DNA of 24,000 nt from Chloroflexota bacterium. GTDB lineage: Bacteria; Chloroflexota; Anaerolineae; DSLN01. Under the pieces are notes generated by a model. It did no database searches. It worked only from the letters and a program-made list of their open reading frames with translations, and had not been told where the DNA came from. Below, one piece after another: positions 870 through 19,477 of the stretch. The stretch's first letter is position 1, and each line of letters opens with the position of its first letter. Location of the stretch: positions 1 to 24,000 of the forward strand of contig CADDZL010000003.1 in NCBI GenBank assembly GCA_902812335.1. The letters are read 5' to 3'. The translations under genes and the position numbers were made by a program.

Positions 870-1748
870 ATGCAGCGTCCTTCTACTTTCTCCATTGTGG
901 CCTACGACCCGCAGCGCGGTGAGTGGGGGGTGGCAGTCCAGTCCAAGTTTCTGGCGGCAGCGGCAGTCGTGTCATGGGCGCGGGCGGCTGCGGGCGCGGT
1001 GGCGACGCAATCGTATGCCAACACAAGTTATGGCCCGCGAGCGCTGGAGTGGATGGCGCAAGGGGTTTCGGCCGAGGAAGTGGTGGCCCGATTAGTTGCC
1101 GATGATGAGGGCCGTGCCCAGCGCCAGGTCGGCGTGGTGGATGCGCAGGGGCGCGCGGCAGCCTTCACTGGCGACGGCTGTTTGCCCTGGGCCGGCCATA
1201 TCATCGGGACACACTACACTTGTCAGGGCAATATCCTGGTAGATGAGCGGACTGTGCAGGCGATGGCCGAAACGTTTGAGGCAACCAGCGGCGAACTGGC
1301 CGAACGGCTGGTGGCAGCCCTGGCTGCAGGCCAGGCAGCCGGGGGCGACCGGCGCGGACAGCAATCCGCAGGGTTATTGGTCGTGCGCGAGAACGGCGGC
1401 TATGGCGGCTTTAATGACCGGTATATTGACCTGCGGGTGGATGATGACCCCCGGCCTATCGAGAAACTGCGCCAACTCCTTGACCTTCATCATCTGTATT
1501 TCGGCCAGACACGCCCCGAAGACTGGCTGCGGATCGAGGGTGACGTCGCCCGCGACCTGCAGCAGTTAGCAGCCAGGGCCGGGTTGTACAATGGCCCGGT
1601 CCATGGTGAATATGACGCGGCGACACGGGCCGCGCTGCGGGCGCTCGTGGGGATCGAGAACCTGGAAGAGCGCTTACGCGAAGAGGATGGGTACATTGAC
1701 GCCGTGGCATTGCAGGTGCTGCACGAGCGCGTGGAGCAGGCGACATGA
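870..1748 (+). CDS. DUF1028-family Ntn-hydrolase-like protein with C-terminal peptidoglycan-binding-like repeat
   Basis: ORF 810..1748. Start moved to ATG 870 (MQRPSTFSIVAYD) behind an AAGGAG RBS. STFSIVA...GVAVQSKF...ATQSYAN...TCQGNIL...GGDRRGQQSA matches my memory of DUF1028. The C-terminus GLYNGPVHGEYDAATRAALRALVG looks like a PG_binding-type helix repeat. Confidence 0.75.
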   Translation: MQRPSTFSIVAYDPQRGEWGVAVQSKFLAAAAVVSWARAAAGAVATQSYANTSYGPRALEWMAQGVSAEEVVARLVADDEGRAQRQVGVVDAQGRAAAFTGDGCLPWAGHIIGTHYTCQGNILVDERTVQAMAETFEATSGELAERLVAALAAGQAAGGDRRGQQSAGLLVVRENGGYGGFNDRYIDLRVDDDPRPIEKLRQLLDLHHLYFGQTRPEDWLRIEGDVARDLQQLAARAGLYNGPVHGEYDAATRAALRALVGIENLEERLREEDGYIDAVALQVLHERVEQAT

Positions 1749-3091
1749 TGCTGATCACACACGGCACAGTGTGTACCTGTGGGGCTGAGCCGCAGGTGCT
1801 TGATGATGGTGCAGTTTGCATCGAGGGCGATCGGATCGCCGCGGTCGGGCCGACCACGGAACTGGCTGTGCGCTATCCGCAGGCGGAACGATTAGATGCC
1901 GCCGGTCAATTGGTCATGCCCGGCGCGATCTGTGCCCATACCCACTTCTACGGCGCGTTTGCGCGGGGGATGAGCCTGCCGGGCGAACCGCCCCGCAACT
2001 TCGTGGAGATCCTCAGGAAGCTGTGGTGGCGCCTGGACCGGGCTTTGGATGAGGAAGCCATCCGCTACTCGGCGCTCGTCTCACTGGTTGACGCCATCCG
2101 CCATGGGACAACCACGCTGATGGACCACCATGCCAGTCCGAACCAGATAGACGGGTCGCTGGATGTTATCGCCGAGGCAGTAGAGCAAGCCGGCCTGCGG
2201 GTCTGCCTGTGCTACGAGGTGACCGACCGCAACGGTGATGAAGGGGCCAAGGCGGGCATTGCTGAGAATGTCCGCTTCATTCGCCGAGTGCGAACGACAG
2301 GCACTGAGCGATTGGCGGCTTCCTTCGGATTGCATGCGTCGCTGACACTGTCGGACCGGACACTAGAGCACGCCGTGGGGGAAGCGCAAGGGCTGGGATC
2401 GGGCTTTCACATTCATGTGGCGGAAGACCAGGCCGACCAGGACGATAGTCTGCGACAGCATGGCCTGCGGGTGGCGCAGCGGTTGGAACGACAGGGCGTG
2501 CTGGGCCAGATGACGCTGGCGGCGCACTGCGTCCACGTGGACCCGGCGGAGATCACTGTCCTGGCACGCACTGGGACAAAGGTCAGCCACCAGCCGCGCA
2601 GCAATATGAACAACGCCGTCGGCACTGCACCGGTTCAGGCGCTGCTTGACGCTGGGGTCCACGTCGGCCTGGGCAACGATGGGTTCTCTAACAATATGTT
2701 CTTGGAGATGAAGGCAGCTTACCTGGTGCACAAACTGGCCGTCCGAGACCCGCGTGCGATGGGCGGTGAGACGGTGATGCGGCTGGCATACGCGGAGAAT
2801 GCCCGCATCGCCAGCCTGTTCTGGCCGGGCACAGTAGGTTCGCTGGAACCAGGGGCTTATGCCGACATCGTGCTGTTGGACTACCGGCCCTATACGCCGC
2901 TGACAGCCGGCAACCTGCCCTGGCATGTTATCTTCGGCGTGGACGGCTCACATGTGACGACCACCATCTGCGCCGGGCGCTTGCTGATGAGAGACCGCCA
3001 ACTGCTGACGCTGGACGAGGAAGCTATTGCGGCCAATGCCCGTGAGGTCGCAGGCAAGGTGTGGCGACGCTTCGCCGAGAGCGGAGACTGA
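1745..3091 (+). CDS. ssnA: SsnA-type putative aminohydrolase (amidohydrolase superfamily, COG0402 clade)
   Basis: 448 aa. PGAICAHTHFYG (HxH), ILRKLWWRLDRALDEEAIRYS, LMDHHASPN, GFHIHVAEDQ, RSNMNNAVG and GLGNDGFS line up closely with E. coli SsnA as I recall it. ATGA overlap with the upstream gene. Confidence 0.85.
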   Translation: MMLITHGTVCTCGAEPQVLDDGAVCIEGDRIAAVGPTTELAVRYPQAERLDAAGQLVMPGAICAHTHFYGAFARGMSLPGEPPRNFVEILRKLWWRLDRALDEEAIRYSALVSLVDAIRHGTTTLMDHHASPNQIDGSLDVIAEAVEQAGLRVCLCYEVTDRNGDEGAKAGIAENVRFIRRVRTTGTERLAASFGLHASLTLSDRTLEHAVGEAQGLGSGFHIHVAEDQADQDDSLRQHGLRVAQRLERQGVLGQMTLAAHCVHVDPAEITVLARTGTKVSHQPRSNMNNAVGTAPVQALLDAGVHVGLGNDGFSNNMFLEMKAAYLVHKLAVRDPRAMGGETVMRLAYAENARIASLFWPGTVGSLEPGAYADIVLLDYRPYTPLTAGNLPWHVIFGVDGSHVTTTICAGRLLMRDRQLLTLDEEAIAANAREVAGKVWRRFAESGD

Positions 3092-3098
3092 AGAGATC

Positions 3099-3761
3099 AT
3101 GCGCATCGCGATCCTCGGGGGCACTGGTAAGGAAGGCTCCGGCCTGGCACTGCGCTGGGCACACGCCGGACACGACCTGGTGATCGGCTCACGCGAACGG
3201 GCCAAGGCCGAACGCGTTGCGGCGGAACTGAACGCTGTCCTGGGCCGTGACGCCATCACCGGGCAGGAGAATCTCAGGGCAGTCGAGCAGGGCGAGGTCG
3301 CCGTCCTGACCGTGCCTTATGCTGCCCATGCGGCCACATTGGAGACTGTGCGCAAGGCGCTGGCGGGCAAGGTGTTGATTGACGTGACTGTGCCACTTGA
3401 CCCGGCCAATGTGCGTCGGGTGAAATTGCCGCCGGCCGGTTCCGCTGCTGTCGAAGCCCAGCAGCTTCTTGGGCCTGAGGTTCGGGTGGTAGCAGCATTC
3501 CATAATGTGTCCGCCGAACATCTGAAGAGGCTCGGTGACCCAATTGACTGCGACGTGCTGGTATGCGGTGATGACAGGTCTGCGAAGGAAGTCGTTATCG
3601 GGCTGGCGGCTGATGCCGGTATGCGCGCGTTCGACGCCGGCGCGCTGGCGAACGCGGCTGTGCCGGAGGGGCTGACGTCGGTGCTGATCAACATCAATGC
3701 GCGCTTCAAGATCAAGGATGCCGGCATCCGCATTACGGGCATCCCCCAGAGCAACTCATGA
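3099..3761 (+). CDS. npdG: NADPH-dependent F420 reductase (F420H2:NADP+ oxidoreductase, NpdG/Fno)
   Basis: ORF 3027..3761. Start moved to ATG 3099. MRIAILGGTGKEGSGLALRWAHAGHDLVIGSR Rossmann N-terminus and VAVLTVPY...VLIDVTVPL are typical of the NpdG family. Confidence 0.85.
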   Translation: MRIAILGGTGKEGSGLALRWAHAGHDLVIGSRERAKAERVAAELNAVLGRDAITGQENLRAVEQGEVAVLTVPYAAHAATLETVRKALAGKVLIDVTVPLDPANVRRVKLPPAGSAAVEAQQLLGPEVRVVAAFHNVSAEHLKRLGDPIDCDVLVCGDDRSAKEVVIGLAADAGMRAFDAGALANAAVPEGLTSVLININARFKIKDAGIRITGIPQSNS

Positions 3762-4522
3762 CTGATCACCCCACCATACAGATCATCGCTATTCCCGGTA
3801 TCCCGTTGATCCGAGCGGGGGACGATCTGGCGGCCATGTTGCTTGACCGGCTGATCGCTGCCGACCTGCGTTTGCAGGACGGCGATGTGCTGGTGGTCAC
3901 CTCCAAAATTGTGTCTAAAGCCGAGGGTCGGGCCGTGTGGCTGCATGATGTGGTGCCCTCGCCGCAAGCCACAGAGCTGGCAACTGTCTGCCAGAAGGAC
4001 CCACGACTGATCGAGGTGATTCTGCGCGAATCGAAGCGAGTGCTGCGCACCCGGCCGGGGCTGATCATCGTGGAGGACCGGCGCGGCTTTGTGTGCGCTA
4101 ACGCCGGAGTGGACCATTCCAACGTGGCGGGCGAGGACTGGGTATTGTGCCTGCCTGAAGACCCGGACCGCTCGGCATTGATGCTGCGGCGGCAACTCGA
4201 AGCGGTGACCGGTGCCCGCATTGGCGTGATCATCGCCGACAGTCATGGGCGGGCCTTCCGCATGGGAACAGTAGGGGTGGCCGTGGGTGTGGCCGGAGTA
4301 GCCGGCCTGCTCGACCTGCGCGGGCGGCCCGATCTGTTCGGCTATCGGCTCCAGGTGACACAAGTGGGCCTCGCCGATGAAATCGCGGCAGCCGCTTCGT
4401 TGCTGATGGGCCAGGCAGATGAGGCCCGCCCAGCGGTGCTGGTGCGCGGTATGCCCTATCCGCTGCGCGAGGGCAACGCTCAGGAGTTGGTCAGGCCACG
4501 TGAACTGGACCTGTTCCGATGA
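3758..4522 (+). CDS. cofE: Coenzyme F420-0:L-glutamate ligase (CofE / FbiB N-domain equivalent)
   Basis: 254 aa. IPGIPLIRAGDDLA, GDVLVVTSKIVSKAEGR, FVCANAGVDHSN and IIADSHGRAFRMG are CofE hallmarks. ATGA overlaps on both sides. Confidence 0.9.
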   Translation: MTDHPTIQIIAIPGIPLIRAGDDLAAMLLDRLIAADLRLQDGDVLVVTSKIVSKAEGRAVWLHDVVPSPQATELATVCQKDPRLIEVILRESKRVLRTRPGLIIVEDRRGFVCANAGVDHSNVAGEDWVLCLPEDPDRSALMLRRQLEAVTGARIGVIIADSHGRAFRMGTVGVAVGVAGVAGLLDLRGRPDLFGYRLQVTQVGLADEIAAAASLLMGQADEARPAVLVRGMPYPLREGNAQELVRPRELDLFR

Positions 4523-5415
4523 ATATCTACGTGCAGCCAATTGCTGCTTCTCGCGAATCGAAGCTGCGTCCCTACCTGGCATTAGGCGTCGGCGTTGTCA
4601 GCCTGGGTTTCTCGGCGATCTTTGTGCGCTGGGCGCACGCGCCGGGTGCCGTTACCAGTTTCTACCGCGTGGCCATTGCCGCCGCCTTGTTAGCCTGGCC
4701 CTTCTTCCGTCGGGTCCGCGCCAGGGGAGGGCTGGCACGGCGTGGGGTTCAATTCGCCGTGCTGGGCGGGTTGTTCTTTGCGGGTGATCTGACCTTGTGG
4801 ACCACAGGCGTGGTTCTCAGTGGCGCGACCAACCCCACGTTGCTGGCCAACACAGCACCGTTGTGGGTCGGATTGGGCGCATTGGTCCTCTTTCATGAGA
4901 GACTCAATGCGACGTTCTGGGTGGGTTTGCTGCTGGCGATGATCGGTGCGCTGGTTGTCCTGGGTCTCGATGCTCTGCGCGCCACGTCCCTCGGCCTGGG
5001 GACGTTCTTGGGGCTCCTGGCCGGGGTGTTCTACGGCGGCTACTTTCTGATCACCCAGCGCGGTCGTGAAACCCTTGATTCGCTGACCTACTTCTGGCCT
5101 GCCGCTGCCAGTTCGACGGCGGCTCTGCTCGTTCTAAGCCTAGCCTTGCGCCAGCCTCTGACCGGCTACCCGGCCTTCACCTACCTGAACTTCATTGCCC
5201 TGGGCCTGGTGACCCAGGTCTTTGGTTATCTGGCGATTAATTACGCTCTGGGCCACTTACCCGCTTCGCTGGTATCGCCAACGCTGCTGGGCCAACCGGT
5301 GGTGACTGCGGTTCTGGCCGGGCCGCTCCTGGGCGAGTCTCTGCAGTTGTGGCAGGTCTTGGGTGGACTGGGCGTGCTGGCCGGGATTTATATTGTCCAT
5401 CGCAGCCGATCATGA
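4519..5415 (+). CDS. EamA/DMT-superfamily transporter (about 10 TM, two EamA repeats)
   Basis: 298 aa, hydrophobic throughout with about 10 helix-length segments. The general EamA pattern (FVRWA..., [27 protein letters not shown]) is present. ATGA overlaps with cofE upstream and the nitroreductase downstream. Confidence 0.8.
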
Positions 5416-6014
5416 ATGTGACTGAAGCGATCCGATCACGCCGCTCGATCCGGCGCTACTTGCCTGAGCAGGTGCCGGACGAAGTTGTTATGAGGCTGTT
5501 AGAAGCGGCTTGCTGGGCACCATCGGCGCATAATCGCCAGCCATGGCGCTTCGCCGTTATCACCGCTGCCGTGGTCAAGGAACAGTTGGCGCGGGCAATG
5601 GGCGCGCGGCTGCGGGCCGACCTGGAACGGGACGATGCGCCATCGCAGGCGATTGAGCGGGATGTCAGCCGTTCCTTTGCCCGCATCACCGGCGCACCGG
5701 TCCTTGTGCTGGCCTGCCTGACCCTGTCCGATATGGACACCTATGCTGACGCCAAGCGTGCCCGGGCTGAGTGGGTGATGGCGGCGCAGAGCGTGGCTAT
5801 GGCAGTACAGAACCTGCTGCTCGCTACTCAGGCGGAAGGGCTGGGAGCATGTTGGATGTGTGCGCCGCTATTCTGTCCGGAGACAGTTCGTGCCGTCCTC
5901 GACCTGCCGGAGGACTGGGAGCCGCAGGCGCTGATCACGCTGGGATATCCCGCGGAGCCACCTAAGGATAAGGGACGGGAGCCGTTAACCAGCCGCGTGA
6001 TTTTTTATAGATGA
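5412..6014 (+). CDS. Nitroreductase-family protein, stand-alone homologue of the FbiB C-terminal (dehydro-F420-0 reductase) domain
   Basis: ORF 5349..6014. Start moved to ATG 5412 (ATGA overlap). [19 protein letters not shown] and GLGACWM are nitroreductase-fold motifs. The position between cofE and cofD supports an F420 biosynthetic role. Confidence 0.75.
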
Positions 6015-6940
6015 AAGTCGTGGCTTTGGCGGGGGGCGTCGGTGGGGCCAAGCTGGCCGATGGGCTGGCACGGCTTTTGCCGCCGGCTGATCTGACGATC
6101 GTCGTGAATACGGCCGACGATTTCACCTGGCATGGGCTGCATATCTCACCCGACCTGGACACGGTGATGTATACCCTGGCGGGGCTTGCCAACCCGGAGA
6201 CCGGCTGGGGCGTGGTCGGGGATGCCTTCCTGGCCCTGGACATGCTGGGGCGTTACGGGCAAGAAACCTGGTTTCATGTCGGCGACCGCGACCTGGCAAC
6301 GCACGTCCTGCGCAGCCATTTGCTACGCCAGGGTATGACGCTGACCGCAGTCACAGCTACACTGGCACGGGCGTTGGGCATAGGGGCGACACTCCTGCCC
6401 ATGAGCAACGAACGTGTGGAGACCGTGGTCGAGACCGACACGGGCGATCTGTCTTTTCAGGAGTATTTCGTCCGCTATGCCTGGCAGCCGGTGGTACGCC
6501 GCCTCCGTTGGGACGGGCTCGATGTAGCCCGGCCAGCGCCAGGCGTGCTGCCGGCGCTGCAGGCCGCGGCTGTCGTGGTGATCTGCCCTTCGAATCCCTT
6601 TGTCAGCATCGGCCCGATGCTGGCTCTGCCCGGCGTACGCGCCTCTCTCCGGGCCGCCCGGCGCGTCCTGGCCGTCTCGCCCATCGTCGGCGGCCGGGCG
6701 CTCAAGGGACCGGCGGCCAAGATGATGGCCGAACTGGGCCAACCTGTTTCCGCCGTGAGCGTCGCGCAGGGCTATGCCGATTTCCTGAATGCGTTCATTC
6801 TAGATCGAGTTGATAGCGCCGAGGTTCCCCAGGTTGAGGCTCTGGGTGTGCGGCCCTTCGTCACAGACACGATCATGCAGGACCAGGCCGGTCGCATCCG
6901 GCTGGCACAGCAGGTCCTGAAGCTGGCGGAGTCGCTGTGA
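6011..6940 (+). CDS. cofD: 2-phospho-L-lactate (or enolpyruvyl) transferase CofD/FbiA
   Basis: 309 aa. [34 protein letters not shown] and [12 protein letters not shown] are CofD signatures. Confidence 0.9.
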
Positions 6941-7542
6941 TGCGTACGACGAAGACCTGGGCCATCGTCCCGGTAAAGCCGCTGCGGCAAGCTAAAAGTC
7001 GGCTCGCGCCAGCGCTCACCGCTAACCAGCGGGCGACGTTGGGACGCTCGTTCCTGGCGCACACGCTGGATGTGCTGACCTCCGGATCAGACCTGGCCGG
7101 TGTGCTTGTGATCAGCGCGGACGCGACGGCCCTGGATCTGGCGCGTGCCAAAGGTGCTGTTGGCCTGCTGGAGACTGACCCTGGCCTGAATGCTGCACTG
7201 GCGCAGGCGACGGCCTGGGCGGTCGAGCATGGCGCTGACGCGACTCTGGTCGTGCCTGCCGATTTGCCGCTGCTCGCGCCAGAAGACATCCAGAGAGTGC
7301 TGGCATTGGCAGAGCCGATGCCAACCGTTGTCCTGGCTCCCGACCGGCGCGAGGAAGGTACGAATGCGCTCCTCAGCGCCCCGCCCGGCCTGATCCCTTA
7401 TGCCTTCGGCCCCGGCAGTTTCGCCCGCCACCGGGCGCACTGTCGGGCACGGAACGTCCCTTGTCGGGTTTATCGCTCGCCGCGCCTGGCGTTTGATGTG
7501 GATTTACCTGAAGACCTGCGCCAGTGGGTGGGCAGCTTGTAA
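6940..7542 (+). CDS. cofC: Phospholactate/phosphoenolpyruvate guanylyltransferase CofC/FbiD
   Basis: ORF 6937..7542 begins GTG-ATG. ATG 6940 overlaps the cofD stop (GTGATG). WAIVPVKPLRQAKSRLA, LVISAD and VVPADLPLL fit CofC. Confidence 0.85.
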   Translation: MRTTKTWAIVPVKPLRQAKSRLAPALTANQRATLGRSFLAHTLDVLTSGSDLAGVLVISADATALDLARAKGAVGLLETDPGLNAALAQATAWAVEHGADATLVVPADLPLLAPEDIQRVLALAEPMPTVVLAPDRREEGTNALLSAPPGLIPYAFGPGSFARHRAHCRARNVPCRVYRSPRLAFDVDLPEDLRQWVGSL

Positions 7543-7581
7543 TTTCTCTCCTCATTTGTAAGGCAGTCCAGGTGGGGGGAC

Positions 7582-13349: not shown

Positions 13350-14776
13350 CGATGTGGGATACCTACTACACACCGAGAACTGTTGACGAGGTCCTCGACC
13401 TGCTGGCGCGCTATGGGCGCGAAGCGCGCATTATCGCTGGCGGGACCGATCTTCTAATTGAGCTGGAACGCAAGGTCCGGCGAGTAGCCGTTCTGATTGA
13501 CATCACGCGCATTCCCGGCCTGGACGAGATCACCCTGGACGAGGCGGGCTGGATTCACCTGGGGCCGTTGGTGACGCACAACCGGGTAGTGAATTCACCC
13601 CTCATCGTCGAACGGGCCTTCCCGTTGGCGCAGGCGGCCTGGAAGGTCGGCGCGCCACAGATCCGTAATCGTGGCACCATCGCCGGCAATCTAATCACTG
13701 CCTCGCCCGCCAACGACACGATCACGCCGTTGTGGGCGTTGGACGCGCGGGTGACCTTGCTAAGCAGGCGCGGGCAGCGCACGTTGGGCTTCCCTGAGTT
13801 CTTCCAGGGAGTGCGTCGGACCGCGATGGCCGATGATGAGATGCTGATCGACATTGCCTTCCCGGCGATGGGCCGGCCTGAGCGGGGCACGTTCGGCAAG
13901 CTGACACTTCGGCAGGCGCAAGCTATCTCGGTGGTCAATATCGCTGTCATAGTAGAGTTGGATGATCACGTTGTGCGACGGGCCCGCCTGAGTTACGGCA
14001 GTGTCGCGCCGACGATTGTCCGGGCTGAGGAGGCCGAAAGATGGCTGGTTGGCAAGAGCCTGGATGACCCTGCGATTGCGCGTGCCGCGCAACTGGCGAT
14101 GGAAGCGGCGCGGCCGATTGATGACGTGCGGGTGACAGCCGAGTATCGCCGCGAAATGGTGGGTGTGATGACCGCGCGGGCCTTGCGAGCCTTGCGTGAT
14201 GGGGCTGAACGCGCCGATTGGCCCGATAGGCCGGTCATGCTTTGGGGGAAGACGGAGGGGCGCATCCGGCCCCTGCCGGGCCCAACGATGCGGCACGGCA
14301 CAGGCAGCGATGATGCCATCGAGACGCGCATCAATGGTCGGTCATATGTCGTCCGAGGGGCGAACGATAAGACGCTGCTGCGTATGCTGCGCGAGGATAT
14401 CGGATTGACGGGCACGAAGGAGGGTTGCGCTGAGGGTGAATGCGGTGCCTGTACGGTATTCCTTGACGGCATGGCAGTGATGGCATGTATGGTCGCCGCG
14501 CCCAAGGCGCATGGAGCCGAGATCACCACTGTGGAGGGGCTGGCGCAGGACGGAAAATTGCATCCGATCCAGCAGGCATTTATTGACGCGGGTGCGGTGC
14601 AGTGTGGCTATTGCACGCCGGGGTTTCTCATGGCCGGAGCAATGCTCCTGGCCGAACGGCCTCACCCGTCGCGTTGGGAGGCCGAGCAAAGCATCACGGG
14701 CAATCTGTGTCGCTGCACTGGCTACTATAGTATCCTGGCCGCGATTGAGCGGGCAGGCCGGACGGATCAGAGATAG
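13346..14776 (+). CDS. Fused FAD-binding (medium) + [2Fe-2S] (small) subunit of a second molybdenum hydroxylase
   Basis: 476 aa. Residues 1 to about 290 form the FAD domain (IIAGGTDLLIE, RNRGTIAGNL, VRVTAEYRREM). Residues from about 324 to 476 form the FeS domain ([26 protein letters not shown]). ATGA overlap with xdhC. Confidence 0.9.
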   Translation: MTMWDTYYTPRTVDEVLDLLARYGREARIIAGGTDLLIELERKVRRVAVLIDITRIPGLDEITLDEAGWIHLGPLVTHNRVVNSPLIVERAFPLAQAAWKVGAPQIRNRGTIAGNLITASPANDTITPLWALDARVTLLSRRGQRTLGFPEFFQGVRRTAMADDEMLIDIAFPAMGRPERGTFGKLTLRQAQAISVVNIAVIVELDDHVVRRARLSYGSVAPTIVRAEEAERWLVGKSLDDPAIARAAQLAMEAARPIDDVRVTAEYRREMVGVMTARALRALRDGAERADWPDRPVMLWGKTEGRIRPLPGPTMRHGTGSDDAIETRINGRSYVVRGANDKTLLRMLREDIGLTGTKEGCAEGECGACTVFLDGMAVMACMVAAPKAHGAEITTVEGLAQDGKLHPIQQAFIDAGAVQCGYCTPGFLMAGAMLLAERPHPSRWEAEQSITGNLCRCTGYYSILAAIERAGRTDQR

Positions 14777-14785
14777 GAGGCAGTT

Positions 14786-15073
14786 ATGGCTTTCCGACGC
14801 GCACCAGAACGCCCACGCCCCAAGCCCGATCCGGTGCGGCGGGCCTGTTTGGGCCTGGTCTATTTTGCGGTCCTGGCCGTCGTCGCTTACGGCCTGTTCA
14901 CGCTAATTGACAGCCGCGTGCAACTGCGGCAAGTGCTCGAACTGGGAAGCGAGATACCCGATGTGGTTGTGGCCGTTGTGGGATCGCTAGTCCTATTCGG
15001 TATCCTGCACTTGTTGGTTCTCATGGGGACCTCTATCGTTCGTGGAGGGAAAACGAATGGCACTCGGCCTTAG
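14786..15073 (+). CDS. Small hypothetical membrane protein (95 aa, basic N-terminus, two predicted TM helices)
   Basis: ATG 14786 lies 5 nt after a strong AGGAGG (14775-14780). Hydrophobic stretches [22 protein letters not shown] and [22 protein letters not shown]. Without this gene there would be a 280-nt hole in an otherwise gap-free operon. I recognise no family. Confidence 0.55.
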
Positions 15074-17255
15074 CCTGCCCCGCATTGACGCCCTGGGCAA
15101 AGTCACGGGCACAACGCCCTATCCCGGTGATTTGAACCTGCCGGGTATGCTGCACATGAAGATTTTGTTTGCCGGCCGGCCGCATGCCCGCATCCGCCGC
15201 CTCGACACGCACCGGGCAGAAGCCGTGCCTGGCGTTGTGGCCATACTCACGGCCAAGGATGTGCCCGTCAATGAGTATGGGCTGATTATTAATGACCAGC
15301 CCGTGTTGTGTGGACCTGGCAGCCGCAAGCAGGGCGCTGATGTCGTCCGCTTCATCGGTGATCAGGTGGCGCTGGTTGTGGCTGAGTCGGAGAAGGCGGC
15401 AGCGACCGCACGTGATTTGATCGAGGTAGACTACGATGATCTTCCTGTGGTCACCGATCCGGTTGTGGCGATGCGGCCGGACGCGCCGTTGCTCTTTCCG
15501 GAACTGGGCACGAATGTCCTCAAGCATTACCGTATCCGCAAAGGCGATATCGCTACCGGCTTTACCCAGGCTGATGTTGTCATCGAGAGCACCTACCGCA
15601 CGCCCTTTCAGGAGCATGCCTATCTACAGCCGGAGGCAGGCCTGGCCTACGTAGATGAGGCCGGGCGGGTGACCGTGGTAGTGGCCGGGCAGTGGACACA
15701 TGAGGACCAGGCACAGATTGCGCATGCGTTGGACCTGCCGGTGGATCAGGTGCGTGTGATCTATCCGGCTATCGGCGGCGCGTTCGGCGGGCGCGAGGAT
15801 ATGTCGGTGCAAATCGTGCTGGCGCTGGCAGCCTGGAAGCTGCGGCGCCCGGTCAAGATCGTGTGGAGCCGGGAGGAGTCCATCGTCGGCCATCACAAGC
15901 GCCACCCCATGGTGCTGCGTGCGCGCTGGGGGGCGACACGGGAGGGCAAAGTCGTCGCGGCAGAAGTAGAGGTCATTGCCGACGCCGGAGCGTATGCTTA
16001 CACCTCGACTAAAGTGCTGGGCAATACGACCCTGATGTGCACCGGGCCGTACGAAATCCCCAACGTGAAGGTAGACAGTTATGCCGTCTACACCAACAAT
16101 ATCCCCACCGGTGCCTTTCGAGGCTTTGGCGGTCCGCAGGGACTGTTTGCCGCCGAAACCCAGATGAACAAGCTGGCCGAAGCGCTGGATATGGACCCGG
16201 TTGAACTGCGGCAGCGCAACCTGTTGCGCGAAGGCAGCCTGCTCTCGGTCGGCACACCGCTGCCGCCAGGCGTGACCATCGGCCAGGTGGTGCAGGCAGC
16301 GGCGGAGGCTGGTTGGAACCTGCCCTCACCCCCGGCCACTCTCTCCAAGGCCGGCAAGAGGGGAGCAAGGGTAAAGGGTAAAGGCTTTGCCTGTGGTTTC
16401 AAGAACGTCGGCTTCAGCTTCGGCGCGCCTGAGCGTTGTTGGGCGACGGTGGAACTATACGGCGGGACCGAGATTGAGCAAGTGATTGTGCGCCACGCCG
16501 GGGCTGACGTCGGACAGGGAGCACATACGGCCATTGTCCAGATGACGGCTGAGGCTGCTGGCGTCTCTGTTGAGAAAGTGCGGTTGGTTGCCTCAGATAC
16601 GGCGGAGACAGGTGATTCAGGCAGTTCATCGGCGTCGCGCATGACCTTCATGGCGGGCAATGCCGTGCGGGGTGCGATGGAGGCGGCGCTGGCGAAGTGG
16701 CGCGATGAAGAAAGGCCCGCAGTAGCTACGTATGTGTACCGGGCGCCACCGACCACGCCTTTCGACCCGGAAACCGGCCATTCTGAACCCAACTTTGCCT
16801 ACGGCTACGTGGCGCAAGTGGCCGAAGTTGAGGTGGACACCGAGACCGGCCAGGTGCGGCTTGTCCGGGTCGTCTCTGCTCACGATGTTGGCCGGGCGGT
16901 CAATCCGCAACTGATCCAGGGTCAGATTGAGGGCGGGGTGGTTCAGGCGCAGGGCTACGCCCTCATGGAGAACCTGGTTGTGCGGGATGGCCGCATCCTC
17001 AACCCATACCTGAGCACCTATCTGATTCCTACAGTGTTGGATGTGCCGGAACGGGTTGAGTCTGTTATTTTGGAGTGCGCCGACCCACGTGGGCCCTGGG
17101 GGGTGCGCGGCATGGCCGAGATGCCCTTCCTGCCCTTAGCGCCTGCTGTCATCGCCGCAGTTCACGACGCGACCGGTGTGTGGTTCGACGCCATCCCCCT
17201 GACGCCTGAGCGAGTTCTGGCCGGTTTAAAGAGCCAGCGCTCAGCGAACGGCTGA
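15057..17255 (+). CDS. Molybdopterin-binding large subunit, xanthine-dehydrogenase-like (XdhA/PucD type)
   Basis: ORF 15042..17255. Start moved to ATG 15057, 6 nt after [35 protein letters not shown] (Glu aligned with bovine XDH E802), [10 protein letters not shown] (R880 equivalent) and GMAEMP (E1261 equivalent). Confidence 0.9.
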
Positions 17256-17274: not shown

Positions 17275-18108
17275 ATGTTGTCTCCTGAGGCAGCTTTCGA
17301 AGGCGCGCTTATTCTGATTAAGGGCGCGGGCGATCTGGCCTCCGGCGTCGCCTACCGGCTGCACCGCGCCGGTTTCCCGCTAGTGATGACCGAATTACCT
17401 GAGCCGTTGGTCGTGCGCCGCGCCGCGGCGTTTGCCGAGGCGGTGTACTCTGCTCAGACGAACGTCGAGGGGCTGGTAGCGCGCAAGGCAGCGAATGTGG
17501 CAGAAGCGCTTGCGCTGGCGCGGCAAGGCATGATCCCGGTGCTGGTGGACCCGACGACAACCTGTCTGGGGGCGCTGGCACCGCTAGTCTTGGTGGACGC
17601 GATCATGGCCAAGCGCAACACCGGCACGCGGATAACCGATGCACCCCTGGTGGTCGCATTGGGGCCGGGTTTCGTTGCGGGCGTGGATTGCCATGCAGTG
17701 ATCGAGACCAATCGGGGGCACTGGCTAGGGCGGGTCTACTGGAACGGGTCGGCTGAGCCGGACACAGGCATTGCCGCCCCAGTGGTGGGCTACACTGCTG
17801 AGCGCGTGCTGCGAGCCCCCTGCGACGGGCCAATCGAGACCTTCTGCCAGATCGGCGACGCCGTCCGGCAGGGGCAGTTCGTGGCAGCGGTGGCCGGGCA
17901 AGGGGTAGCAGCGCCATTTGACGGGGTGGTGCGCGGGCTGATTCACCCCGGGCTTATGGTGCGAGCCGGGTTAAAGATCGGTGATGTGGACCCCAGGGCA
18001 CAGCGTGAGCACTGCTTCACCATCTCGGACAAGTCTTTAGCAGTAGGGGGCGGCGTGCTGGAGGCGGTATTGGCGTCGCCGGCGGTGAGGGCGCGGCTGT
18101 GCCGCTGA
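17275..18108 (+). CDS. yqeB: YqeB/EF2563-family selenium-dependent molybdenum hydroxylase system protein
   Basis: 277 aa. ILIKGAGDLASGVAYRLHRAGFPLVMTELPEPLVVRRAAAFAEAVY matches my memory of the TIGR03309 family N-terminus. It sits directly downstream of a hydroxylase and upstream of yqeC. No clear RBS, so the start is uncertain. Confidence 0.7.
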   Translation: MLSPEAAFEGALILIKGAGDLASGVAYRLHRAGFPLVMTELPEPLVVRRAAAFAEAVYSAQTNVEGLVARKAANVAEALALARQGMIPVLVDPTTTCLGALAPLVLVDAIMAKRNTGTRITDAPLVVALGPGFVAGVDCHAVIETNRGHWLGRVYWNGSAEPDTGIAAPVVGYTAERVLRAPCDGPIETFCQIGDAVRQGQFVAAVAGQGVAAPFDGVVRGLIHPGLMVRAGLKIGDVDPRAQREHCFTISDKSLAVGGGVLEAVLASPAVRARLCR

Positions 18109-18112
18109 AGCC

Positions 18113-19477
18113 ATGCAGCTTCGCCGGGCTCTTCGCATAGTCAAAGGTGACATCATCGCCTTCGTCGGCGCTGGCGGCAAGACGACCGCAATATTCCGAT
18201 TGGCAGATGAGATGGCCGCCGATAGTTGCCGCGTTGTCATCACCACCACGACGCACATGTACCCTCCAACTGGCGGTGACCTGCCGGTTATCACAGGTGA
18301 CGGGGATGAGTTGCTCCAACGTGTGCGGCAACGGCTGAATCAGGTTAGCCGCGTAGTCGTGGCATCCACCTATGTAGACACGCCCGAAGGCACAAAGCTG
18401 GCCGGTCTCAGGCCGGAATTTGTCGCGTTGCTCAGCGGAGGCACACAGGCGGATGTCGTCTTAGTCGAGGCAGACGGTTCCCGTGGGCGGCCTCTCAAGG
18501 CCCCGGCAGCGTACGAGCCGGTCATCCCGCCGGCTGCGACGCTCGTTGTAGCAGTGGCCGGACTCAGCGTTCTCGGCCGGCCGCTCGGCGGTGAAACCGT
18601 TCACCGGTCGGAACGGGTGACTGCCCTCGCAGGTATTTCTGACGGAGAGATGATCACACCTGAGCATTTGGCGAATGTCCTCGTTCATCCGGAAGGAGGG
18701 CTGAAGGGCATACCGGAAGGAGCGCGTGTTGTGGCCTTACTCAACCAGGCAGACGATCCGGCGCGCCTCGATGCAGGCCGGCAGGTGGCAAACCGGCTCT
18801 TGCGCCAGGGGCGATTCGCGGCGGTAGGTATCAGCGCGCTGGGGGGCCTCATCAGCGATGGGGTGCGCGAGGTGCACGAACGGGTTGCCGCTATTGTCCT
18901 GGCGGCCGGTGCAGGACGGCGCTTTGGTGGTGCCAAGCAACTGGCGCTCTGGCGGGGTCGGCCGCTGCTGGTGCACGTGGTTGAGGCGGTGCTTGCCAGC
19001 CAGGTGACTGAGGTGGTGATCGTTACGGGTTATGAGAGTGAGAGGGTAGCAGCGGCTGTGTCGAGTTGGGGTCCACATCTTCGCATAGTCATGAATCCCA
19101 ACTGGTCCAACGGACAAAGCACATCCGTGCACACCGGACTGAGCGCCCTGCCTACAAACATAGGAGCTGCCCTCTTTGTCCTGGCGGACCAGCCACGCCT
19201 GTCACCCCAGGTCATCAACGCGATCCTGCAATGTCGCCGCGAGACGCTCGCGCCCATCGTTGCCCCAACCTATGGGGAACAGCGGGGTAATCCCGTGCTC
19301 TTCGACCGCGATCTATTTCCCGAGTTGCTGGGGACGACCGGTGACGTTGGCGGGAGACTGTTGATCGAGAGATATGCGGAGCAGGTGGCCTGGCTGCCCT
19401 TCGCCGTTGAACTGGCCCCGGGGGACGTGGACCGGCCGGAGGACCTGCAGGAGGATAACGCGGACGGCGGGCCATAA
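18113..19477 (+). CDS. Fusion protein: YqeC-family selenium cofactor accessory protein (aa 1 to about 245) + MocA-like molybdenum cofactor cytidylyltransferase (aa from about 247 to 454)
   Basis: The N-terminal part has IIAFVGAGGKTT (P-loop), VVITTTTHM and VLVEADGSRGRPLKAPAAYEPVIP, as in TIGR03172/YqeC. The C-terminal part has AAIVLAAGAGRRFGGAKQL, VVIVTGY, NPNWSNGQSTSV, LADQP and GNPVLFDR, as in MobA/MocA-type NTP transferases. Confidence 0.8.
   Translation: MQLRRALRIVKGDIIAFVGAGGKTTAIFRLADEMAADSCRVVITTTTHMYPPTGGDLPVITGDGDELLQRVRQRLNQVSRVVVASTYVDTPEGTKLAGLRPEFVALLSGGTQADVVLVEADGSRGRPLKAPAAYEPVIPPAATLVVAVAGLSVLGRPLGGETVHRSERVTALAGISDGEMITPEHLANVLVHPEGGLKGIPEGARVVALLNQADDPARLDAGRQVANRLLRQGRFAAVGISALGGLISDGVREVHERVAAIVLAAGAGRRFGGAKQLALWRGRPLLVHVVEAVLASQVTEVVIVTGYESERVAAAVSSWGPHLRIVMNPNWSNGQSTSVHTGLSALPTNIGAALFVLADQPRLSPQVINAILQCRRETLAPIVAPTYGEQRGNPVLFDRDLFPELLGTTGDVGGRLLIERYAEQVAWLPFAVELAPGDVDRPEDLQEDNADGGP

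What the first reader, a model, noticed from the sequence alone, without database searches (positions are those of the whole stretch)
870..19477. 17-gene, 18.6-kb translationally coupled array joining F420 supply to selenium-type molybdenum hydroxylases
Seen: every gene from 870 to 19477 is on the + strand. Seven junctions are ATGA start/stop overlaps (1745, 3758, 4519, 5412, 6011, 8637, 13346) and one is GTGATG (6937). Two are longer overlaps (12540-12553 and 15057-15073). The remaining gaps are 4-19 nt, apart from a single 87-nt gap (7543-7629). Gene order is DUF1028, SsnA, NpdG/Fno, CofE, EamA, FbiB-C-like nitroreductase, CofD, CofC, LLM F420 oxidoreductase, YgfM-like FAD subunit, XdhD-like FeS-Mo subunit, XdhC, FAD-FeS subunit, small TM protein, Mo subunit, YqeB, YqeC-MocA. 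Established: F420 biosynthesis clusters and the yqeB/yqeC/xdh selenium-dependent hydroxylase clusters are each known separately. I know of no described system in which they form one operon. Inference: F420/F420H2 is the dedicated redox partner, or an obligatory pathway cofactor, of a purine or N-heterocycle hydroxylation/reduction pathway.
Basis: partly seen in the sequence, partly recalled or inferred. Interest (0 to 1): 0.85.

Follow-up and report, generated by a model that had tools for sequence, protein, structure and literature searches.

The report
F420-powered anaerobic purine breakdown operon
This is a Chloroflexota version of the recently discovered anaerobic uric-acid breakdown pathway, in which an F420-dependent enzyme probably replaces the usual ring-reducing enzyme and the operon carries its own F420 assembly genes; a 2025 paper already noted the F420 enzyme in one sentence, so this is an interesting variant rather than a new kind of system.

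Summary
Seventeen co-directional genes run from 870 to 19477, with the stated overlaps and gaps, and HMM searches confirm every family call, though several only as "-like".

The linkage is not peculiar to this genome. Close homologues of the central luciferase-like (LLM) gene are at least 74% identical in the best 80 of at least 588 matching genomes, nearly all Chloroflexota. Of 40 loci with both flanks, 36 carry F420 (cof) genes next to the LLM. Twenty-three carry cof genes, SsnA and a xanthine-dehydrogenase-family enzyme together, always co-directional. One of these is the cultured Phototrophicus methaneseepsis.

The best reading is the upper half of the reductive uric-acid pathway published in 2025 (urate, then 2,8-dioxopurine, then a dihydro form, then SsnA ring opening). 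Here a Mer-like, putatively F420H2-dependent LLM stands in for YgfK/UacX. Fno recharges F420, and CofC, CofD, FbiE and CofE assemble it.

- LLM and YgfK never co-occur beside SsnA (11 loci versus 6, none with both).
- In two loci the LLM abuts SsnA with no cof genes between them, once with YgeW-, YgeY- and YqeA-like lower-pathway genes.

Li et al. 2025 already flagged the Chloroflexota LLM. The F420 biosynthesis genes inside the operon appear undescribed. DUF1028 and EamA are lineage-specific passengers. Nothing here is biochemically tested.

The parts
830..838 (+). Extended -10-like element TGCTATAAT, 31 nt upstream of the first start codon; candidate promoter of the array
   Evidence: Read directly from the sequence. 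The consensus scan did not report it because the -35 region is weak. Inference only.
870..1748 (+). DUF1028 (Ntn-hydrolase superfamily) plus PG_binding_2 protein. Its stop overlaps the SsnA start (ATGA). Probably a lineage-specific passenger linked to cell-envelope genes.
   Evidence: Pfam DUF1028 at 5.9e-79 and PG_binding_2 at 1.2e-13. Absent from all 80 LLM loci. At 85% identity it has the same position (L172). At 68% identity it follows PMT_2 and precedes ThiF and methyltransferases, with no SsnA (L173/L174).
1745..3091 (+). SsnA amidohydrolase; predicted to open the ring of reduced 2,8-dioxopurine
   Evidence: NF005540 546.5 bits (cut-off 444) and TIGR03314 525.6 bits (cut-off 455.5). It is 36% identical to E. 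coli SsnA over the full length. The E. coli function is from Li et al. 2025.
3099..3761 (+). Fno/NpdG, NADPH-dependent F420 reductase; recharges F420H2
   Evidence: TIGR01915 221.9 bits (cut-off 149.8). Found in 34 of 52 related loci with enough upstream flank.
3758..4522 (+). CofE, F420-0:gamma-glutamyl ligase
   Evidence: TIGR01916 294.4 bits (cut-off 180.65). Found in 35 of 52 related loci.
4519..5415 (+). EamA/DMT-family transporter of unknown substrate; lineage-specific insert in the F420 block
   Evidence: Pfam EamA at 9.1e-26. Absent from all 80 genome loci. Present in the 85% relative L172.
5412..6014 (+). Stand-alone FbiB-C-terminal-like nitroreductase, called 'FbiE' in Chloroflexi; predicted dehydro-F420-0 reductase
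   Evidence: TIGR03553 151 bits, below the cut-off of 249.55 but the best hit. The FbiE role in Chloroflexi is from the F420 review PMC8498797. Found in 29 of 52 related loci.
6011..6940 (+). CofD/FbiA, 2-phospho-L-lactate (or enolpyruvyl) transferase
   Evidence: TIGR01819 319.5 bits (cut-off 257.45). Found in 34 of 52 related loci.
6937..7542 (+). CofC/FbiD guanylyltransferase
   Evidence: TIGR03552 169.4 bits (cut-off 105). Found in 37 of 52 related loci.
7630..8640 (+). Mer-like luciferase-like (LLM) oxidoreductase, putatively F420H2-dependent; proposed 2,8-dioxopurine (yanthine) reductase that replaces YgfK/UacX
   Evidence: Pfam Bac_luciferase at 3.2e-68. The top 15 NCBIfam hits are all F420-dependent LLM families, none above its cut-off. 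The best solved relative is Mer at 1.5e-42, against Fgd at 2.9e-14. It is 74-81% identical in the best 80 of at least 588 matching genomes. It abuts SsnA in L088 and L132. It is mutually exclusive with YgfK near SsnA. Li et al. 2025 propose the same role.
8637..9527 (+). YgfM-like FAD subunit (CO-dehydrogenase flavoprotein fold); its start overlaps the LLM stop
   Evidence: Pfam FAD_binding_5 and CO_deh_flav_C. The best E. coli match is YgfM at 30%, against XdhB at 25%. TIGR03312 scores 92.8 bits, below the cut-off of 241.5.
9542..12553 (+). XdhD-like fusion of a 2x[2Fe-2S] domain with a molybdopterin subunit (1003 aa); candidate urate to 2,8-dioxopurine reductase
   Evidence: Pfam Fer2, Fer2_2, hammerhead, MoCoBD_1 and MoCoBD_2. 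It is 37% identical to E. coli XdhD over 982 aa with the same fusion architecture, and equally 37% identical to XdhA over the Mo part. The best solved relative is the reductive dehydroxylase 4-hydroxybenzoyl-CoA reductase. It shares the GGGFGSKQ motif with E. coli XdhD. It scores below the equivalog cut-offs.
12540..13349 (+). XdhC-family molybdenum-cofactor insertion chaperone
   Evidence: Pfam XdhC_CoxI and XdhC_C. It is 38% identical to the N-terminal half of E. coli YqeB.
13346..14776 (+). Fused FAD-binding and 2x[2Fe-2S] subunit of the second xanthine-dehydrogenase-family enzyme
   Evidence: Pfam FAD_binding_5, CO_deh_flav_C, Fer2 and Fer2_2. Found in 23 of 45 related loci with enough downstream flank.
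14786..15073 (+). 95-aa protein with a basic N-terminus and two predicted transmembrane helices; no family
   Evidence: No Pfam or NCBIfam hit. Hydropathy gives two TM segments. Small proteins occupy the same slot in relatives; those checked (the u26 and u28 ORF groups) have two hydrophobic segments.
15057..17255 (+). Molybdopterin subunit of the second enzyme (PucD-like); candidate (hypo)xanthine dehydrogenase
   Evidence: TIGR03196 PucD 610 bits, below the cut-off of 784. Solved relatives are 4-HBCR, the selenium-dependent nicotinate dehydrogenase 3hrd, and XDHs. It carries the motifs [16 protein letters not shown] and AEMP. Equating these motifs with bovine Glu802, Arg880 and Glu1261 is from memory.
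17275..18108 (+). YqeB, marker for selenium-dependent molybdenum cofactor maturation
   Evidence: TIGR03309 361.4 bits (cut-off 220). It is 49% identical to the C-terminal half of E. coli YqeB.
18113..19477 (+). YqeC fused to a MocA-like cytidylyltransferase (forms the molybdopterin cytosine dinucleotide cofactor)
   Evidence: TIGR03172 202.1 bits (cut-off 73.05). TIGR03310 MocA 154.7 bits, below the cut-off of 186.45. The same fusion occurs in L175.

Best explanation
The array encodes the 'upper' part of a Chloroflexota variant of the reductive (anaerobic) uric-acid/purine degradation pathway, together with everything needed to run it on coenzyme F420.

Proposed flow:
1. A PucD-like xanthine dehydrogenase (13346-17255) makes urate from (hypo)xanthine.
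2. The XdhD/YgfM-like enzyme (8637-12553) removes the C6 oxygen of urate to give 2,8-dioxopurine.
3. The Mer-like LLM (7630-8640) uses F420H2 to dearomatise that ring. YgfK does this step in E. coli and UacX in C. difficile.
4. SsnA (1745-3091) pulls the unfavourable reduction forward by hydrolysing the product.

Supporting functions:
- Fno (3099-3761) regenerates F420H2 from NADPH.
- CofC/FbiD, CofD/FbiA, FbiE and CofE build F420 from the deazaflavin FO.
- XdhC, YqeB and YqeC-MocA mature the cytosine-dinucleotide, possibly selenium-bearing, molybdenum cofactor.

Shown here: gene identities, overlaps, conservation, and the pattern of co-occurrence and exclusion. Taken from the literature: the E. 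coli and Clostridium pathway chemistry. Inferred: the LLM substrate, its use of F420, which of the two molybdenum enzymes does which step, and single-transcript expression.
For: Family calls. Junction overlaps with no terminators between genes.

Comparison with the E. coli cluster. The window has homologues of SsnA (36%), YgfM (30%), XdhD (37%, same FeS-Mo fusion), YqeB, YqeC and MocA. It has none of YgfK. E. coli's order ygfK-ssnA-ygfM-xdhD corresponds to ssnA-[fno cofE eamA fbiE cofD cofC]-LLM-ygfM-xdhD here.

Pathway chemistry. YgfK needs coupling to SsnA, and Chloroflexota SsnA clusters carry a PF00296 protein instead of YgfK/UacX: PMC12507026 and PMC12990295.

Conservation. LLM orthologues are 74-81% identical in the best 80 of at least 588 matching genomes. 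Of 40 loci with both flanks, 36 have cof genes, 26 have SsnA, 25 have xdh genes and 23 have all three. All 23 are co-directional. The layout persists in a divergent LLM clade at 54% identity and in cultured Phototrophicus methaneseepsis.

Independence from cof genes. In L088 the order is LLM, then SsnA (its start overlapping the LLM stop), then PALP, M20 (YgeY-like), PALP, YqeA (47%) and two YgeW-like genes, with cofE 10 kb away on the other strand. In L132 SsnA and LLM are adjacent.

Substitution pattern seen from SsnA. Of 40 metagenomic SsnA loci, 11 have the LLM only, 6 have YgfK only and none have both. cof genes accompany the LLM in 8 of 11 and never accompany YgfK.

Lower-pathway genes (HyuA, YgeW, YgeY, YqeA, YgeX-like) lie directly upstream of SsnA-Fno-cof-LLM in L097, L150 and L157.

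The LLM's closest solved relative is the F420-dependent Mer. The XdhD-like protein's closest solved relative is a reductive dehydroxylase.
Against: - No biochemistry supports any step.
- The LLM scores below every curated NCBIfam cut-off, so F420 dependence is inferred from its nearest families only.
- The LLM is linked more tightly to cof genes (36 of 40) than to SsnA (26 of 40). Some lineages keep cof-LLM with no SsnA in view: Caldilineaceae-type loci L006, L012 and L085, and also L175.
- The LLM is far more conserved (74-81%) than SsnA (49-72%) or CofD (43-57%). That would also fit a housekeeping enzyme.
- The exclusivity count is small. About 1.6 'both' loci would be expected under independence, so zero observed is only suggestive.
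- Many related arrays carry only one xanthine-dehydrogenase-family enzyme, the FAD/FeS plus Mo type. The assignment of the urate-reducing step is therefore open.
- The XdhD-like protein is as similar to XdhA as to XdhD, and it keeps an Arg where E. coli XdhD has Gln.
- HyuA, YgeW, YgeY and YgeX are absent from the window.
- FO synthase (CofG/H or FbiC) is not in the window.
- Unrelated genes (metallophosphoesterase, DHH phosphoesterase, a large membrane protein) interrupt the arrays in relatives.
Confidence: 0.6

Rival explanations
1. Neighbourhood by descent, not by function. A self-contained F420 biosynthesis/Fno/LLM operon happens to sit between ssnA and xdh genes in an ancestral Anaerolineae arrangement. 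The LLM would then be a highly conserved Mer-like housekeeping enzyme acting on some other substrate, for example a pterin or folate C1 carrier.
For: - LLM-cof linkage (36 of 40) is stronger than LLM-SsnA linkage (26 of 40).
- Some loci have cof-LLM only, or the LLM alone.
- The LLM is 74-81% identical across a phylum while its neighbours are 43-72% identical.
- Its best solved and curated matches are Mer, and JGI annotates the family as 'mer'.
- The only sizeable gap, 87 nt, lies just before the LLM.
- Unrelated genes are interspersed in relatives.
Against: - The LLM abuts SsnA without cof genes in L088 and L132, and in L088 lower uricolytic genes are present too.
- The LLM is never found with YgfK near SsnA.
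- All 23 triple-linked loci are co-directional, even though neighbour identity is only about 50%.
- In the window the LLM stop overlaps the start of the YgfM-like subunit.
- No folate or C1 genes were seen next to the LLM in any annotated context.
Confidence: 0.2
2. F420 is the direct electron donor or acceptor of one or both molybdenum hydroxylases, through their divergent FAD subunits. The LLM would play a separate or auxiliary role.
For: - cof-LLM stays next to xdh, XdhC and YqeC genes even where SsnA is not in view (L007, L076, L175, L177).
- The LLM and the YgfM-like subunit are translationally coupled.
- The FAD subunits match curated XDH FAD models only weakly.
- The physiological donor of the Clostridium urate reductase is still unknown (PMC12990295).
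Against: - The FAD subunits show no recognisable F420-binding domain, only the ordinary FAD_binding_5 and CO_deh_flav_C domains.
- E. coli XdhD-YgfM works with NADH.
- The missing YgfK/UacX step already gives the LLM a sufficient role.
Confidence: 0.1
3. The cluster degrades a different N-heterocycle, such as nicotinate, a pterin or a substituted purine, rather than urate or xanthine. The SsnA-like and XDH-like enzymes would have diverged in specificity.
For: - Both molybdenum subunits fall below all equivalog cut-offs.
- Their best solved relatives are 4-hydroxybenzoyl-CoA reductase and nicotinate dehydrogenase, not XDH.
- SsnA is only 36% identical to the characterised E. coli enzyme.
- 23 of 40 related SsnA loci have no purine genes nearby.
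Against: - SsnA passes the curated SsnA equivalog cut-off.
- Relatives carry YgeW-, YqeA-, YgeY-, HyuA- and YgeX-like genes, the set specific to uricolysis.
- The second Mo subunit keeps the xanthine-type Glu/Arg/Glu motifs.
Confidence: 0.1

Closest known systems
E. coli reductive uricolytic cluster ygeW-ygeX-ygeY-hyuA-yqeA / yqeB-yqeC-mocA / ygfK-ssnA-ygfM-xdhD (Li et al. 2025, PMC12507026; commentary PMC12990295)
   Same: The window has SsnA, a YgfM-like FAD subunit, an XdhD-like FeS-Mo fusion, YqeB, YqeC and MocA homologues (30-49% identity). The reductase, amidohydrolase, FAD-subunit and Mo-subunit genes are grouped in the same way.
   Different: The window has no YgfK; a Mer-like LLM is proposed in its place. 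The block between ssnA and the LLM holds Fno, four F420 assembly genes and an EamA transporter gene. The window has no HyuA, YgeW, YgeY, YgeX or YqeA. E. coli YqeB is a fusion of XdhC-like and YqeB halves, which are separate genes here. YqeC and MocA are fused here. A second complete XDH lies inside the array.
Clostridial variant (C. difficile UacX/UacY; C. sporogenes XdhAC)
   Same: It shows that the dearomatising reductase slot is interchangeable between lineages while SsnA stays constant.
   Different: UacX is a DHODH-fold flavoenzyme presumed to depend on ferredoxin. Here the candidate is a TIM-barrel LLM using a deazaflavin hydride carrier, and the cofactor's own biosynthesis genes are in the cluster.
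Chloroflexota SsnA neighbourhood with a PF00296 'putative F420-dependent yanthine reductase' (one sentence plus Fig. 3c in Li et al. 2025)
   Same: This is the same system. The window is an instance of it.
   Different: The paper does not mention the Fno/CofC/CofD/FbiE/CofE genes, the second XDH, YqeB/YqeC, how far the layout is conserved, or any test of the assignment. No supplementary text mentions F420 or Chloroflexota.
Bacterial F420 biosynthesis via dehydro-F420-0 (FbiC, FbiD/CofC, FbiA/CofD, FbiB or CofE plus FbiE) as reviewed in PMC8498797
   Same: CofC, CofD and CofE pass their equivalog cut-offs. A stand-alone FbiB-C-terminal homologue (FbiE) is present, as described for the Chloroflexi strain Thermomicrobium roseum. 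Fno is the F420 reducer.
   Different: FO synthase is not in the array. The genes are embedded in a catabolic operon. The review does not mention xanthine, purine or molybdenum at all.
Mer, F420-dependent methylenetetrahydromethanopterin reductase
   Same: It is the closest solved and curated relative of the LLM (1.5e-42). It has the same TIM-barrel LLM fold family and also transfers hydride to a fused N-heterocycle.
   Different: The LLM scores well below the Mer cut-offs (181 vs 349; 183 vs 276). It is a bacterial protein with no methanopterin genes nearby. The LLM forms its own tight clade, with the next full-length 50%-cluster representatives at 54% identity or less.

Membership tests
Reductive (anaerobic) uricolytic gene cluster | SsnA-family amidohydrolase | tested here: met
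   NF005540 546.5 bits (cut-off 444) and TIGR03314 525.6 bits (cut-off 455.5). It is 36% identical to E. coli SsnA over the full length.
Reductive (anaerobic) uricolytic gene cluster | XdhD-type molybdenum enzyme with a YgfM FAD partner (urate to 2,8-dioxopurine) | tested here: inconclusive
   It has the same FeS-Mo fusion and an adjacent YgfM-like gene, and is 37% identical to XdhD. However, TIGR03313 scores 709 bits (cut-off 1102), TIGR03312 scores 93 bits (cut-off 241), and it is equally similar to XdhA.
Reductive (anaerobic) uricolytic gene cluster | Dearomatising reductase YgfK (IPR017701) | tested here: not met
   No YgfK homologue was found in the window or in the 80 LLM loci. The window has no DHO_dh (UacX-type) Pfam hit either, but UacX itself was not searched for in the related loci. 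The slot is proposed to be filled by the LLM.
Reductive (anaerobic) uricolytic gene cluster | [quoted passage not shown] | tested here: not met
   None is in the window. They are present next to homologous arrays in L088, L097, L150 and L157.
Reductive (anaerobic) uricolytic gene cluster | Conversion of urate via 2,8-dioxopurine to ureidomethyl-hydantoin | not testable with these tools
   This requires enzymology or metabolomics.
F420 biosynthesis pathway (bacterial dehydro-F420-0 route) | CofC/FbiD, CofD/FbiA and CofE | tested here: met
   TIGR03552 169 bits (cut-off 105), TIGR01819 319 bits (cut-off 257), TIGR01916 294 bits (cut-off 181).
F420 biosynthesis pathway (bacterial dehydro-F420-0 route) | Dehydro-F420-0 reductase (FbiB C-terminal domain or FbiE) | tested here: inconclusive
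   The best hit is TIGR03553 at 151 bits, below the cut-off of 249.55. BluB is second at 92 bits.
F420 biosynthesis pathway (bacterial dehydro-F420-0 route) | FO synthase (CofG/CofH or FbiC) | tested here: not met
   No such gene was found among the 22 window proteins scanned. None of the recurrent neighbour families that were examined looks like one. It may lie elsewhere in the genome.
Fno (F420:NADPH oxidoreductase) | NpdG equivalog | tested here: met
   TIGR01915 221.9 bits (cut-off 149.8).
F420-dependent LLM oxidoreductases | Membership of a curated F420-dependent LLM subfamily | tested here: inconclusive
   The top 15 NCBIfam hits are all F420-dependent LLM families (Mer, TIGR04024, TIGR03841 and others). 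FMN-type LLMs score at 1e-12 or weaker. No cut-off is reached.
Mer (methylene-H4MPT reductase) | Equivalog score | tested here: not met
   TIGR03555 180.7 bits (cut-off 348.7) and NF002619 183.1 bits (cut-off 276).
Selenium-dependent molybdenum hydroxylase trait | YqeB and YqeC present | tested here: met
   TIGR03309 361 bits (cut-off 220) and TIGR03172 202 bits (cut-off 73).
Selenium-dependent molybdenum hydroxylase trait | SelD in the same genome, and labile selenium in the enzyme | not testable with these tools
   SelD is not in the window. The trait needs SelD, YqeB and YqeC together (PMC9312934). The whole genome is not available here.
Single operon | Co-directional genes with overlapping or short junctions and no internal terminator | tested here: met
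   The single 87-nt gap has no significant structure.
Single operon | One transcript | not testable with these tools
   This needs RNA-seq or RT-PCR.

The most novel reading that the evidence does not exclude
In Anaerolineae-type Chloroflexota, coenzyme F420 is made largely for purine catabolism. The cofactor's tail-assembly and recharging genes are part of the catabolic operon, so the cofactor would be made on demand. The Mer-like LLM would then be a new enzyme activity, an F420H2:2,8-dioxopurine reductase. That would give F420 its first defined physiological role in this phylum.
Probability: 0.4. Interest if true: 0.65.

Novelty: new variant of a known kind. Interest (0 to 1): 0.5.

Why it matters
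The F420 review (PMC8498797) notes that no F420-dependent enzyme has been studied experimentally in bacteria outside Actinobacteria, and that F420's role in Chloroflexi rests on guesswork. This array links F420 supply, F420 recharging and a single highly conserved LLM to a pathway whose chemistry was worked out only in 2025. It therefore offers a concrete substrate to test.

It also shows a catabolic operon that carries the biosynthesis genes of its own unusual cofactor. The dearomatising step of anaerobic uricolysis would then have been solved at least three times: by YgfK, by UacX and by an LLM.

The array occurs in many environmental Chloroflexota and in a cultured strain, so the test is feasible. 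The value is tempered because the key idea is already in print as a bioinformatic remark.

Tried and rejected
- **Riboswitch or other RNA control.** Rfam found nothing in the window. Folds of the 87-nt gap and of the 3' end are no better than shuffled sequence.
- **Internal terminators.** All 18 terminator-like hits lie inside coding sequence, none in a gap.
- **DUF1028 as a new pathway hydrolase.** Rejected. At 68% identity it leaves the cluster and stays with PMT_2 glycosyltransferase genes.
- **EamA as a conserved F420/FO or purine transporter of the system.** Rejected as a core part. It is absent from all 80 related loci.
- **Flanking class-V aminotransferase (19634-20719) and second amidohydrolase (20860-22185) as lower-pathway genes.** They are not conserved beside the array.
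- **Using distant LLM relatives from the 50%-cluster library for context.** Those ids cannot be looked up directly. I worked around this by re-searching with P0241.
- **Resolving which molybdenum enzyme reduces urate.** BLAST, curated models and motif alignment all failed to decide it.
- **Annotating 'SsnA-alone' metagenomic loci in search of a third reductase type.** The neighbours were housekeeping genes such as RecJ, RNase J and PP2C.
- **Whole-genome questions** (a second cof set, FO synthase, SelD, YgfK elsewhere). These could not be addressed because only ±10 kb around each hit is available.

Full report
**1. Observation**

The window has about 63% G+C. It contains an unbroken run of 17 + strand genes from 870 to 19477.

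- ATGA overlaps at 1745, 3758, 4519, 5412, 6011, 8637 and 13346
- GTGATG at 6937
- a 14-nt overlap at 12540-12553 and a 17-nt overlap at 15057-15073
- one 87-nt gap (7543-7629), with all other gaps 4-19 nt

No terminator-like hairpin lies in any gap. The 87-nt gap and the region after 19477 fold no better than shuffled sequence. No Rfam family matches. An extended -10-like TGCTATAAT sits at 830-838, ahead of a GGAG ribosome-binding site and the ATG at 870.

The same gene order is found on three metagenome contigs from runs SRR24490439 to SRR24490441.

**2. Gene identities**

Pfam and NCBIfam confirm all 17 labels.

These score above curated cut-offs: SsnA, NpdG/Fno, CofE, CofD, CofC, YqeB and YqeC.

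These are best hits below the cut-offs:
- the stand-alone FbiB-C-terminal-like nitroreductase, which the F420 review calls FbiE in Chloroflexi (PMC8498797)
- the LLM (best hit Mer)
- the YgfM-like FAD subunit
- the 1003-aa FeS-Mo fusion (XdhA 719 vs 780; XdhD-type TIGR03313 709 vs 1102)
- the second Mo subunit (PucD 610 vs 784)
- the MocA half of the last gene

The 95-aa ORF has no family but has two clear transmembrane segments.

The flanks hold:
- a GT2 glycosyltransferase (14-826, minus strand)
- a class-V aminotransferase (19634-20719, minus strand)
- a TRZ/ATZ-type amidohydrolase (20860-22185)
- QueG and an OpcA fragment

No FO synthase is present.

**3. What is already known**

A full-text search led to Li et al. 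2025 (PMC12507026) and a commentary (PMC12990295). Together they describe the reductive uric-acid pathway:
- XdhD-YgfM (E. coli) or XdhAC (C. sporogenes) reduces urate to 2,8-dioxopurine ('yanthine').
- YgfK, or UacX in C. difficile, dearomatises it. Turnover was detected only when coupled to SsnA, which opens the ring.
[quoted passage not shown] Neither the main text nor the held supplement mentions F420 biosynthesis genes. The F420 review never mentions purine, xanthine or molybdenum.

**4. Comparison with E. coli**

I compared the window against the K-12 ygeW-ygfT region.

| Window protein | E. coli match | Identity |
|---|---|---|
| SsnA | SsnA | 36% |
| YgfM-like FAD subunit | YgfM (better than XdhB at 25%) | 30% |
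| XdhD-like FeS-Mo fusion | XdhD over 982 aa, same fusion; XdhA over the Mo part | 37% each |
| YqeB | C-terminal half of YqeB | 49% |
| XdhC | N-terminal half of YqeB | 38% |
| YqeC-MocA | YqeC | 37% |

The window has no YgfK, HyuA, YgeW, YgeX, YgeY, YqeA or YgfT homologue.

E. coli's order ygfK-ssnA-ygfM-xdhD maps onto ssnA-[fno cofE eamA fbiE cofD cofC]-LLM-ygfM-like-xdhD-like here. The F420 module and the LLM occupy the place of ygfK.

Solved-structure searches give these closest relatives:
- LLM: Mer at 1.5e-42, against Fgd at 2.9e-14
- XdhD-like protein: the reductive dehydroxylase 4-hydroxybenzoyl-CoA reductase
- Second Mo subunit: that enzyme, then the selenium-dependent nicotinate dehydrogenase, then XDHs

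In an alignment the second Mo subunit carries [16 protein letters not shown] and AEMP. From memory, these correspond to the bovine XDH residues Glu802, Arg880 and Glu1261. The XdhD-like protein shares GGGFGSKQ with E. coli XdhD but keeps Arg where XdhD has Gln. Which enzyme reduces urate is therefore not settled.

**5. Is the linkage conserved?**

A scan of one genome per species with the LLM found at least 588 relatives. The best 80 loci are 74-81% identical and almost all are Chloroflexota MAGs: Anaerolineae, Caldilineaceae, Aggregatilineales, Thermoflexus and Ardenticatenia.

tblastn of the window proteins against these loci gives, for the 40 loci with both flanks:
- 36 have cof genes beside the LLM
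- 26 have SsnA
- 25 have xanthine-dehydrogenase-family genes
- 23 have all three, and all 23 are co-directional

The recurring order is SsnA, Fno, CofE, (FbiE), CofD, CofC, LLM, variable inserts, (YgfM-like, XdhD-like), XdhC, FAD/FeS, small TM protein, Mo subunit, (YqeB, YqeC-MocA).

DUF1028 and EamA occur in none of the 80 loci.

The inserts include a large membrane protein of about 790-860 aa with no Pfam match, a metallophosphoesterase, DUF6909, a DHH-CBS phosphoesterase, a thioesterase and NUDIX.

The layout persists in two further places:
- a divergent LLM clade, 54% identical to the window
- the complete genome of cultured Phototrophicus methaneseepsis ZRK33, whose description paper mentions neither F420 nor purines

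This refutes the 'only in this genome' scenario.

**6. Is the LLM part of the purine pathway or only of the F420 operon?**

LLM-cof linkage is the tightest. Some lineages keep cof-LLM with no SsnA in view (L006, L012, L085, L175). The LLM is also unusually conserved. So the question is real. Three observations favour a role in the purine pathway.

(a) In L088 the LLM (78% identical) is followed by SsnA, whose start overlaps the LLM stop. SsnA there is 46% identical to the window protein and 36% to E. coli SsnA. Then come PALP, an M20 peptidase (YgeY-like), PALP, carbamate kinase (47% to YqeA) and two YgeW-like carbamoyltransferases. The only cof gene in view is 10 kb away on the other strand. 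L132 also has SsnA and LLM adjacent.

(b) I scanned metagenomes with SsnA and kept the 40 loci with at least 5 kb of flank. Eleven have the LLM and no YgfK, six have a YgfK homologue and no LLM, none have both, and 23 have neither. cof genes accompany the LLM in 8 of 11 and never accompany YgfK. The numbers are small: about 1.6 loci with both would be expected by chance.

(c) HyuA-, YgeW-, YgeY-, YqeA- and YgeX-like genes lie immediately upstream of SsnA-Fno-cof-LLM in L097, L150 and L157.

**7. Mechanism proposed**

A PucD-like XDH supplies urate from (hypo)xanthine. The XdhD/YgfM-like enzyme makes 2,8-dioxopurine. The LLM transfers a hydride from F420H2 to dearomatise it, and SsnA hydrolyses the product.

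Fno keeps F420 reduced from NADPH. CofC, CofD, FbiE and CofE make F420 from FO. XdhC, YqeB and YqeC-MocA mature the molybdenum cofactor.

Shown here are the gene content, the coupling, and the conservation and co-occurrence patterns. Taken from papers is the pathway chemistry in E. coli and Clostridium. Inferred are the LLM's substrate and cofactor, the assignment of the two Mo enzymes, selenium dependence (SelD was not seen) and single-transcript expression.

The lower pathway and FO synthase must be encoded elsewhere or be replaced by other genes.

**8. Rivals**

- Inherited neighbourhood with an unrelated Mer-like housekeeping LLM: 0.2
- F420 as the direct partner of the hydroxylases: 0.1
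- A different N-heterocycle substrate: 0.1

Evidence for and against each is given in the rival entries.

**9. Verdict**

Its claim of novelty is overstated, because the F420-dependent LLM in Chloroflexota SsnA clusters was noted in 2025.

New here:
- the F420 assembly and recharging genes sit inside the catabolic array
- the arrangement is conserved across the phylum and into a cultured strain
- the LLM/YgfK exclusion and LLM-SsnA adjacency lend independent support
- DUF1028 and EamA are identified as passengers

I rate it a new variant of a known kind, with moderate interest (0.5).

Noticed in passing
window 7630-8640; loci L004-L083: The LLM is 74-81% identical across Chloroflexota orders, while its operon neighbours are far less conserved: SsnA 49-72%, CofD 43-57%, XdhD-like 60-70%. 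The reason for this extra constraint is unexplained.
   Followed up: partly
window 14786-15073; u26 and u28 ORF groups in L013, L014, L017, L024, L027, L033, L063, L068; L177 11284-11724; L179 16665-17063: A small protein always sits between the FAD/FeS gene and the Mo-subunit gene of the second XDH. In the window and in the u26 and u28 groups it has a basic N-terminus and two hydrophobic segments (95-146 aa overall). Sequence similarity is weak but position is conserved. It may be a membrane anchor for the enzyme.
   Followed up: partly
window 870-1748; L172; L173/L174: The DUF1028 plus PG_binding_2 protein stays next to PMT_2/GT2/YfhO envelope glycosyltransferase genes in relatives. In 68%-identical homologues it is followed by ThiF, two O-methyltransferases, an acetyltransferase and a JAB peptidase rather than by SsnA.
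   Followed up: yes
window 12540-13349 and 17275-18108; L084 16615-18240: E. coli YqeB (541 aa) is a fusion of an XdhC-like N-terminal half and the YqeB-specific C-terminal half. In the window these are two separate genes about 4 kb apart, and YqeC is instead fused to MocA.
   Followed up: yes
L179 11012-13519 and 17244-19010; L177 5435-7903 and 11763-13523; L024 16968-18764; L055 4657-7236: Two uncharacterised proteins recur inside related arrays but are absent from the window. One is a large protein of about 790-860 aa with no Pfam match, right after the LLM; the representative inspected looks multi-pass membrane. The other is DUF6909 (about 590 aa), between the FAD/FeS and Mo genes. No paper in the library mentions DUF6909.
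   Followed up: partly
L172 18205-18657: In the nearest relative of the window's array, a PNPOx/Pyridox_ox_2-family gene lies on the opposite strand between cofC and the LLM, and a SpoIIE phosphatase gene is inserted after EamA. The PNPOx fold is the one used by F420-dependent FDORs.
   Followed up: no
L050 (binned as Pleurocapsa minor), L088 (Ca. Bipolaricaulia), P0474 (Oceanobacillus sp.): A few LLM homologues at 75-78% identity (to the window; L050, L088) or 59% (to the divergent-clade query P0241; P0474), in L050 with a Chloroflexota-type array, are attributed to non-Chloroflexota bins. This could be mis-binning or horizontal transfer; it is not resolved.
   Followed up: no
window 19634-20719 (-) and 20860-22185 (+): Just past the array lie a class-V aminotransferase (best hit pyridoxamine-pyruvate or aspartate-glyoxylate type, below cut-off) and a TRZ/ATZ-family amidohydrolase (474 bits to the N-ethylammeline chlorohydrolase model, 26% identical to SsnA). 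They could feed or drain purine metabolism, but they are not conserved next to related arrays.
   Followed up: partly
L175 (Logan SRR28678153): One divergent lineage keeps Fno-CofE-FbiE-CofD-CofC-LLM, the membrane protein, the metallophosphoesterase, DUF6909 and YqeC-MocA, but shows no XDH subunits or SsnA in the 19 kb available. This may be a decayed or rearranged version of the cluster.
   Followed up: no
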